Shown here: piece by piece, positions 1 through 600 of the stretch
Layout: each line of letters opens with the position of its first letter
How positions within the stretch are numbered: the stretch's first letter is position 1
Assembly (NCBI RefSeq): GCF_003334785.1
Contig: NZ_QOWV01000081.1
DNA: 600 bases
Origin: Escherichia coli
GTDB taxonomy: Bacteria > Pseudomonadota > Gammaproteobacteria > Enterobacterales > Enterobacteriaceae
Reading direction: 5' to 3' (one strand)
Position numbers and translations under genes: made by a program
Notes under the pieces: model-generated
Seen by the model: only the letters and a program-made list of their open reading frames with translations
Database searches by the model: none
What the model was told of the DNA's origin: nothing

Positions 1-600
1 CCCTCATCCTCGCTGCGGATAAGTTTGCCGGTCAGGTCGTGGTGATAACGCTGTGTGCGGCCGTCAAAGCCGGTTTCCTGTATCAGCCGGTCAAGTACAT
101 CGTAACGGAAGGTGGTGTGGCTGCCGTTTTCACTGGTCAGGCGGATGACCCGTCCGGCAGCATCGTATTCCATACTGCGCGTCAGCCCGCCCTGCGTGGT
201 ACGGACGGCCTTTCCCCACGCATCGTACTGTGTCCCGTTTCTGCTGCCGTCCGGGGCAATGACGGCGGTCAGGTCACCGGCGATGTTGTATTCATACCGC
301 GTTTCATGGCCCTGCGTGTCTTTCACGGCAATTAACTGTCCACGGCTGTCGTATGCGCGGTACTGACTCAGCCCTTCCTCGCGGTGCACCGCCGTCATCT
401 GCTCGAAGCGGTCATGGTCATAACGGGTTACATAACCGGAACAGTCGGTGAAGCTCAGCAACTGACCGTAACGGCTCCACGTCATGGTTTTCCGGCTGCC
501 GGTGGCATCTTCCGTTGCGCAGGGTAAGTCACTGTGTGGATTATCATAACGGTAGCGGGTGATATCGCCGTCAGGGGCAGTTTCCTGAATCAGACGGCCC
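1..600 (-). CDS. Rhs-family YD-repeat core protein (polymorphic toxin shell), internal fragment; partial at both the 5' and 3' ends
   Basis: Seen in sequence: the reverse-complement frame with codons 599..597 down to 5..3 is open across the whole window (199 codons, no stop). Its translation carries YD dipeptides at about 21-residue spacing within motifs such as RYRYD, YRAYDSRGQLIAV, YEYNIAGDLTAV, MEYDAAGRVIRL, FRYDVLDRLIQE and RYHHDLTGKLI, matching the Rhs/YD-repeat consensus (roughly xRYxYDxxGRL). Established knowledge: this pattern defines Rhs/YD-repeat proteins (Pfam RHS_repeat PF05593, TIGR01643). From memory the residue string looks like the E. coli rhsA/B/C/D-type core, but I cannot assign a paralog or species without an alignment, so the gene symbol is left blank. 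No start or stop codon lies in the window, so the true gene extends beyond both edges. Confidence 0.93.

What the first reader, a model, noticed from the sequence alone, without database searches (positions are those of the whole stretch)
1..600. Likely multi-copy sequence: possible substrate for homologous recombination and assembly collapse
Rhs cores usually occur as several near-identical paralogs per genome (E. coli K-12 has five rhs elements). Such copies mediate RecA-dependent duplications and inversions, and they commonly break or collapse short-read assemblies. If this window comes from a short contig or contig edge, the flanks may be chimeric or mis-joined.
Basis: established knowledge. 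Interest (0 to 1): 0.25.

Follow-up and report, generated by a model that had tools for sequence, protein, structure and literature searches.

The report
Multi-copy E. coli Rhs toxin core

Summary
Confirmed and ordinary. All 600 bases are an open reading frame on the minus strand (frame 2). It encodes residues about 492-691 of an E. coli Rhs core protein, made of YD repeats. The window differs by 1 base from K-12 rhsB, 2 from rhsA and 15 from rhsC. rhsD matches at only about 80%, and rhsE has no counterpart of this segment. Among 5,426 complete E. coli genomes, 72% carry the window; the median is 3 near-identical copies (range 1-6), or 4 if rhsD-type copies are counted. In K-12, rhsA and rhsB share perfect tracts of 1,811 and 1,214 nt, lie in direct orientation 143 kb apart, and are documented to produce 139-147 kb duplications. 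Exchange between copies is visible in the data: strain E423 has rhsA identical to rhsB over 3,467 nt, and strain 4/2-1 has a mosaic core at the rhsC locus. Assembly problems are documented in the literature and visible in database records, where small rhs-only contigs are labelled as plasmids. Two parts of the finding are not supported or not testable. Inversions are not expected in K-12, because all its copies point the same way. The window's own source, read depth and flanks could not be examined. The window's single unusual base (T403, Gly558Glu) occurs in only one other genome.

The parts
1..600 (-). Internal fragment of an Rhs core coding sequence. It corresponds to K-12 rhsB nt 1476-2075 (residues about 492-691 of 1,411), with no start or stop codon inside the window.
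   Evidence: Frame 2 of the minus strand is open end to end and the other five frames have stops. NCBIfam RHS_core E=2e-116. 99.8% identity to annotated rhsB. Position in the gene.
543..599 (-). Partial YD (RHS) repeat unit, RhsB aa 493-511
   Evidence: Pfam PF05593 i-E=0.0011; coordinates converted
372..476 (-). YD (RHS) repeat unit, RhsB aa 534-568
   Evidence: Pfam PF05593 i-E=3.6e-06
243..353 (-). YD (RHS) repeat unit, RhsB aa 575-611
   Evidence: Pfam PF05593 i-E=3.3e-10; TIGR01643 best stretch 83-120
120..227 (-). YD (RHS) repeat unit, RhsB aa 617-652
   Evidence: Pfam PF05593 i-E=5.5e-06
54..167 (-). YD (RHS) repeat unit, RhsB aa 637-674
   Evidence: Pfam PF05593 i-E=1.1e-10
403..403 (.). 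Rare base T where K-12 rhsA, B and C all have C. On the coding strand it changes GGG to GAG, Gly558Glu. It is the only difference from K-12 rhsB.
   Evidence: A 55-mer centred on this base matches only 1 of 5,426 complete genomes, strain E423, at two places. It has no exact match in GTDB representative genomes or JGI metagenome contigs.
183..183 (.). The only position in the window that separates K-12 rhsA (T) from rhsB (C). It is synonymous (Leu631) and marks the break between the 1,811-nt and 1,214-nt perfect rhsA/rhsB tracts. The window has the rhsB state.
169..200 (.). 32-nt stretch identical to K-12 rhsD, the longest perfect tract between the rhsB and rhsD cores, which are otherwise about 80% identical. 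It is what lets megablast count rhsD-type copies.
   Evidence: longest tract 32 nt starting at rhsB nt 1876. The median count drops from 4 to 3 places per genome when it is left out of the query.
60..90 (.). Internal direct repeat with 567-597 (31 nt, 81% identical). These are two YD units that both encode RLIQET..DG; it is not a separate element.
   Evidence: with the translation

Best explanation
The window is a 600-bp internal piece of the conserved core of an Escherichia coli Rhs gene of the rhsA/B/C type, read on the minus strand. It encodes several YD repeats. In solved Rhs proteins these repeats form the shell that encloses the variable C-terminal toxin. Because this core is kept nearly identical at several chromosomal loci (typically three per genome), the DNA also behaves as a long dispersed repeat. 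That is a by-product, not its function. RecA-dependent pairing between copies gives unequal crossovers; in K-12 this produces the roughly 140 kb rhsB-rhsA tandem duplication. It also gives gene conversion, which keeps the cores alike and makes them mosaic. For sequencing, reads shorter than the 1.2-1.8 kb perfect tracts cannot be assigned to a locus, so contigs break or collapse there and SNP calls inside the core are unreliable. Shown here: the identity of the sequence, the copy numbers, the perfect-tract lengths, the direct orientation in K-12, the mosaic or homogenised cores in two strains, and orphan rhs contigs in databases. Taken from papers: the duplications, their recA dependence, and the contig breaks. 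Inferred: that the window's own source genome is multi-copy.
For: Identity. Copy number: median 4 places, 3,897 of 5,426 genomes; median 3, range 1-6, with rhsD-type copies excluded. In the evenly spread sample rows whose best match is 99.5% or more, every genome has 2-4 near-identical places. Repeat anatomy. Direct orientation and 142,991-bp spacing. Exchange between copies: E423 rhsA and rhsB are identical over gene nt 1-3467, including two private changes, while the K-12 pair differs at 12 sites in that span. The 4/2-1 rhsC-locus core is rhsC-type at nt 30-724, rhsB-type at 954-2331 and rhsC-type from 2337. Duplications: PMC4340650, PMC3588905, PMC2935791 citing Lin 1984. Assembly effects: PMC3045373, PMC6703438, and plasmid-labelled rhs contigs. 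Shell-forming Rhs structures related to this segment: Tse5 8cp6 E=2.4e-43, 7q97 E=1.6e-32 and others.
Against: The source genome was not identified, so its copy number is inferred. A minority of genomes have a single copy (lowest 1; for example strain c1-17 has one place at 99.2%), and 28% of complete E. coli genomes have no close copy at all. Jackson et al. 2009 state that no natural chromosomal rearrangement via rhs had been published, so the rearrangement role is documented mainly under laboratory selection. The identity of rhsA and rhsB in E423 could be a polishing artefact rather than gene conversion.
Confidence: 0.9

Rival explanations
1. The window is single-copy in its source genome, so it poses no recombination or assembly hazard there.
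For: Some complete genomes have only one place (minimum 1; strain c1-17 has one place at 99.2%). 1,529 of 5,426 genomes have none.
Against: The median is 3 near-identical places. Every sampled genome whose best match is 99.5% or more has 2-4 places. The only genome that shares the rare T403 base has it at two loci and has 4 places in all.
Confidence: 0.07
2. The window is itself a product of collapse or error: a consensus of several copies, or a sequence carrying a sequencing error at position 403.
For: No complete E. coli genome contains the exact 600-mer; the best match is 99.8%. The T403 55-mer is absent from GTDB representatives and JGI metagenome contigs.
Against: T403 is seen independently in strain E423. 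The window's haplotype (T403 without E423's G350) sits one step between K-12 rhsB and the E423 allele, as expected for a real allele. All 14 sites that separate rhsB-type from rhsC-type are rhsB-type, so there is no mixed pattern. The reading frame is intact.
Confidence: 0.1
3. Rhs cores are dedicated cis-acting 'rearrangement hot spots' whose function is to reorganise the chromosome.
For: The historical name, and recurrent rhsB-rhsA duplications in laboratory lines.
Against: The segment is an intact coding sequence for YD repeats, homologous to the shells of solved toxin-delivering Rhs proteins. No RNA family, tandem repeat or promoter-like site was found in it. Jackson et al. 2009 explicitly reject this role. 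Any long repeat, such as rrn operons, IS elements or tufA/B, behaves the same way.
Confidence: 0.02

Closest known systems
E. coli K-12 rhsB (b3482), rhsA (b3593) and rhsC (b0700): the RhsA-B-C core subfamily described by Hill and co-workers
   Same: 600 of 600 bases align without gaps, with 1, 2 and 15 mismatches respectively. The reading frame and the YD repeats are the same. The window corresponds to gene nt 1476-2075.
   Different: One non-synonymous base (T403, Gly558Glu) that is absent from K-12 and from 5,425 of 5,426 complete genomes. Which locus the window comes from cannot be told, because rhsB-type sequence for this segment also occurs at the rhsA and rhsC loci of other strains.
E. 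coli K-12 rhsD / rhsE (the RhsD-E core subfamily)
   Same: Same protein family and domain layout. rhsD aligns over window positions 1-557.
   Different: Only 80% identical, with 5 gaps; the longest perfect tract is 32 nt; no 75-mer is shared. That is too diverged to confuse reads, and by general knowledge a poor RecA substrate. The rhsE pseudogene lacks this segment.
Other long dispersed repeats in E. coli that drive duplications and break assemblies (rrn operons, IS elements, tufA/tufB)
   Same: Kilobase-scale near-identity at several loci, RecA-dependent unequal crossover, and contig breaks in short-read assemblies (PMC3045373).
   Different: Rhs cores are protein-coding and are not mobile elements. 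Each copy ends in a different toxin tip and immunity gene (general knowledge; the K-12 cores lose similarity after about nt 3,700).
Structurally solved Rhs/YD-shell toxins (Tse5 8cp6; Rhs family protein 7q97; Tse15 8uy4; Tre23 7pq5; teneurins)
   Same: The translated window aligns to the YD-repeat shell region of these proteins at E=2.4e-43 to 1e-23.
   Different: Similarity is at the protein level only. These are not DNA repeats of the window and have no bearing on copy number.

Membership tests
E. coli Rhs core, rhsA/B/C subfamily | Near-identity (about 97% or more) at the DNA level to the roughly 3.7 kb core of K-12 rhsA/B/C | tested here: met
   99.8%, 99.7% and 97.5% over 600 ungapped bases
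E. coli Rhs core, rhsA/B/C subfamily | Match to the curated RHS_core model (NCBIfam NF041261) | tested here: met
   E=2e-116, 390 bits, model positions 501-699 of 1261. The whole-protein cut-off of 2000 bits cannot be reached by a 199-aa fragment.
E. coli Rhs core, rhsA/B/C subfamily | YD/RHS repeats | tested here: met
   Pfam PF05593, four units at E of 5.5e-06 or better plus one partial unit; TIGR01643 E=4.2e-24
E. coli Rhs core, rhsA/B/C subfamily | Complete element: N-terminal domain, end-of-core motif, variable C-terminal toxin tip and downstream immunity gene | not testable with these tools
   These lie outside the 600-base window and the source contig was not found. The best-matching K-12 genes do have variable ends: similarity collapses after about nt 3,700.
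Dispersed repeat able to support RecA-dependent rearrangement | Two or more copies per genome with long perfect homology | tested here: met
   Median 3 near-identical places per genome. In K-12, rhsA and rhsB share perfect tracts of 1,811, 1,214 and 236 nt. For the window's own genome this is inferred.
Dispersed repeat able to support RecA-dependent rearrangement | Relative orientation of the copies (direct gives duplication or deletion; inverted gives inversion) | tested here: met
   All five K-12 rhs genes are on the + strand of NC_000913.3, so they are direct repeats. Duplications are expected and inversions are not. Orientation in other strains was not surveyed.
Dispersed repeat able to support RecA-dependent rearrangement | Observed rearrangements with junctions in the repeat, and dependence on recA | not testable with these tools
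   From the literature only: PMC4340650, PMC3588905, and PMC2935791 citing Lin et al. 1984. Footprints of exchange between copies were seen here.
Assembly-confounding repeat | Read-length k-mers shared exactly between loci | tested here: met
   Within the window's segment of rhsB, 86% of 75-mers, 67% of 150-mers and 48% of 250-mers are also exact in rhsA. For rhsC the figures are 29%, 1% and 0%, and for rhsD all are 0.
Assembly-confounding repeat | Excess read depth or mixed bases over this window in its source assembly | not testable with these tools
   No reads and no source contig are available.

The most novel reading that the evidence does not exclude
The rare Gly558Glu allele (T403) marks an E. 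coli lineage in which rhsA and rhsB have very recently been homogenised by gene conversion over about 3.5 kb, as in strain E423, where both loci share T403 and a second private change. If so, the window samples an intermediate step (T403 without G350). Such private alleles could then be used to time and measure conversion tracts between loci 140 kb apart in natural populations.
Probability: 0.35. Interest if true: 0.2.

Novelty: already known. Interest (0 to 1): 0.08.

Why it matters
The practical value is small. Anyone using this window should know three things. It cannot be assigned to a particular rhs locus. SNPs inside it are unreliable from short reads. Contigs that end in it, or small 'plasmids' made of it, are probably assembly artefacts. 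Biologically it restates what has been known since 1984: Rhs cores are long repeats that recombine. It opens no new question.

Tried and rejected
(1) I tried to find the window's own source so that contig length and flanks could be checked. No complete E. coli genome contains the exact 600-mer. The 55-mer around T403 has no exact match in GTDB representative genomes or JGI metagenome contigs. The question about contig edges and chimeric flanks therefore stays open. (2) I looked for anything else in the window. There are no Rfam matches at E of 1 or less, no tandem repeats and no promoter-like sites. One terminator-like site was found, which is within the chance expectation of 0.6. The plus-strand ORFs (the longest is 98 aa at 39-335) are antisense to a well-supported coding sequence and have no support of their own. 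(3) I considered that T403 might come from conversion by an rhsC-type copy, because rhsC differs at 398, 402, 405 and 408. I rejected this because rhsC also has C at 403. (4) I considered methylation-motif errors in long-read data as the cause of the E423 variants. By my own reading of the sequence, no GATC or CCWGG motif lies at 403 or 350, so this is neither supported nor excluded. (5) I did not use the protein-database searches, structure prediction or the second genome scan. 99.8% DNA identity to annotated genes already settles what the sequence is.

Full report
WHAT IS IN THE WINDOW. Six-frame translation shows one frame, minus strand frame 2, open across all 600 bases; every other frame has stops. 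The 199-residue product matches the curated NCBIfam model RHS_core (NF041261) over model positions 501-699 of 1261 at E=2e-116, and the YD-repeat model TIGR01643. Pfam finds four RHS_repeat units at E of 5.5e-06 or better, plus a partial fifth. At the DNA level the window is 99.8% identical to genes annotated rhsB, rhsA, rhsC or 'RHS element core protein' in complete E. coli genomes. In K-12 it corresponds to nt 1476-2075 of the 4,236-nt rhsB gene, residues about 492-691 of 1,411. Related solved structures (Tse5 8cp6, E=2.4e-43; Rhs 7q97; Tse15; Tre23; teneurins) align to this segment through their YD-repeat shells. By general knowledge, that shell encapsulates the C-terminal toxin. Nothing else is detectable in the window. 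There is no Rfam family at E of 1 or less, no tandem repeat and no promoter-like site, and the one terminator-like hit is within chance expectation. The single internal direct repeat (60-90 and 567-597, 81% identical) is two YD units that both encode RLIQET..DG.

IS IT MULTI-COPY? Yes, in the species it belongs to. The full window matches 3,897 of 5,426 complete E. coli genomes at 16,556 places, median 4 and maximum 7 per genome, almost all chromosomal. That count includes the diverged rhsD-type cores, which megablast reaches only through a 32-nt perfect stretch at window positions 169-200. Searching again with positions 201-600 removes them: 3,881 genomes, 11,287 places, median 3, range 1-6. 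In K-12 MG1655 the window differs from rhsB at one base (403), from rhsA at two (183, 403) and from rhsC at fifteen. rhsD is 80% identical with gaps, and the rhsE pseudogene has no counterpart of the segment. About 28% of complete genomes have no close copy, and a few have only one. Multi-copy status in the window's own genome is therefore likely, not proven.

HOW GOOD A RECOMBINATION SUBSTRATE IS IT? Alignment of the K-12 genes shows that rhsA and rhsB are essentially identical for about 3.5 kb and lose similarity after about nt 3,700, where the variable tips begin. Their perfect tracts are 1,811 nt (gene nt 82-1892), 1,214 nt (1894-3107) and 236 nt. The window straddles the single SNP, at nt 1893 (window position 183), that separates the two longest tracts. 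rhsC shares at most 341 perfect nt with rhsA or rhsB, and rhsD at most 32 nt with rhsB. All five K-12 rhs genes are on the + strand, and rhsB and rhsA start 142,991 bp apart. Crossovers between direct repeats give tandem duplications or deletions, not inversions. The literature agrees. [quoted passage not shown] The name rhs comes from the recA-dependent glyS duplication of Lin, Capage and Hill 1984, as summarised in PMC2935791. The same paper cautions that no natural chromosomal rearrangement through rhs had been reported and rejects a 'hot spot' function. The inversion part of the finding has no support here.

FOOTPRINTS OF EXCHANGE BETWEEN COPIES. Two cases turned up while I chased the window's one odd base. 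First, T403 (coding strand GGG to GAG, Gly558Glu) is absent from every complete genome except strain E423. There it occurs at both the rhsA locus (next to yibF-selA) and the rhsB locus (next to nikR). In E423 the two genes are identical over their first 3,467 nt, including T403 and a second private change (window position 350, Asp576His). The K-12 pair differs at 12 sites in that span. This is either recent gene conversion or cross-copy polishing of the assembly, and I cannot tell which without reads. The window carries T403 but not G350, so it lies one step between K-12 rhsB and the E423 allele. That argues T403 is a real, rare allele and not an error. Second, in strain 4/2-1 the gene at the rhsC locus (ybfA-kdpF side) is rhsC-type at nt 30-724, rhsB-type at nt 954-2331 (covering the window's segment) and rhsC-type again from nt 2337. 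One consequence is that the window cannot be assigned to a locus. rhsB-type sequence for this segment occurs at the rhsA, rhsB and rhsC loci in different strains, and the annotation names do not track loci.

ASSEMBLY CONSEQUENCES. Within the window's segment of K-12 rhsB, 86% of 75-mers, 67% of 150-mers and 48% of 250-mers are also exact in rhsA. For rhsC the figures are 29%, 1% and 0%, and for rhsD all are zero. Over the whole core, 79% of 150-mers are shared with rhsA. [quoted passage not shown] In O157:H7, an rhsC SNP was called from Illumina data but not from ONT data in two isolates (PMC6703438). Public records show the same thing. Ten PLSDB 'plasmids', all typed non-mobilizable, match the window. 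One is a 5,191-bp linear record from a Klebsiella oxytoca assembly that is really E. coli kdpA-kdpF-ybfA-rhs chromosome ending inside the core. Another is a 2,340-bp Klebsiella pneumoniae record that consists of Rhs core from end to end. A third is a 10,245-bp E. coli 'plasmid' that is largely an rhsA locus.

WHAT COULD NOT BE DONE. The exact window was not found in complete E. coli genomes. Its T403 55-mer was not found in GTDB representative genomes or JGI metagenome contigs. Contig length, flanks and depth in the source are therefore unknown. Within the window there is no sign of chimerism: all 14 sites that separate rhsB-type from rhsC-type are rhsB-type, and the frame is intact.

VERDICT. 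It is established knowledge applied correctly to a very ordinary sequence. Novelty: already known. Interest: low. The only mildly interesting by-product is the rare Gly558Glu allele and the fully homogenised rhsA/rhsB pair in strain E423.

Noticed in passing
window 403: A single rare base (T; Gly558Glu on the coding strand) is the only difference from K-12 rhsB. Among 5,426 complete E. coli genomes, only strain E423 has it. Its 55-mer has no exact match in GTDB representative genomes or JGI metagenome contigs.
   Followed up: yes
L007:4471-8700 and L008:14546-18781 (E. coli E423, NZ_CM173464.1): rhsA and rhsB of E423 are identical over their first 3,467 nt and share two private non-synonymous changes (Gly558Glu, Asp576His). 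The K-12 pair differs at 12 sites in the same span. This is either recent gene conversion or cross-copy polishing. The fetched E423 regions also contain several frameshifted or internal-stop genes (for example rbbA), which raises the question of assembly accuracy.
   Followed up: partly
L012:3882-8075 (E. coli 4/2-1, NZ_CP023834.1, rhsC locus): The core at the rhsC locus is a three-part mosaic relative to K-12: rhsC-type at nt 30-724, rhsB-type at nt 954-2331, and rhsC-type from nt 2337.
   Followed up: yes
L009 (NZ_CP069926.1), L010 (NZ_CP069827.1), L011 (CP088628.1): Records deposited as plasmids are really fragments of chromosomal rhs loci. A 5.2 kb linear E. coli kdpA-kdpF-ybfA-rhs piece ending inside the core sits in a Klebsiella oxytoca FDAARGOS assembly. 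A 2.3 kb record that is Rhs core from end to end sits in a K. pneumoniae FDAARGOS assembly. A 10.2 kb 'circular plasmid' of E. coli is largely an rhsA locus. The Klebsiella cases also suggest E. coli contamination.
   Followed up: partly
rows H103, H104, H106, H107: PLSDB holds 'plasmid' records of 1.0-4.8 Mb from E. coli with 1-4 rhs places each. They look like chromosomes or chromosome fragments mislabelled as plasmids.
   Followed up: no
L009:1-2771; annotation column: The gene names rhsA, rhsB and rhsC in RefSeq annotation do not follow chromosomal locus. For example, the gene next to ybfA-kdpF, which is the K-12 rhsC locus, is named rhsB in NZ_CP069926.1.
   Followed up: partly
window 169-200: A 32-nt stretch is perfectly conserved between the rhsB-type and rhsD-type cores, which are otherwise about 80% identical. 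It is the longest such tract in the whole core. It falls in the segment encoding ...GGLTRSMEYDAAGR....
   Followed up: no
window 39-335 (+ strand): A 98-aa GTG-initiated ORF lies antisense to the Rhs coding frame. Nothing supports it as a gene. It is probably a by-product of the composition of the opposite strand.
   Followed up: no
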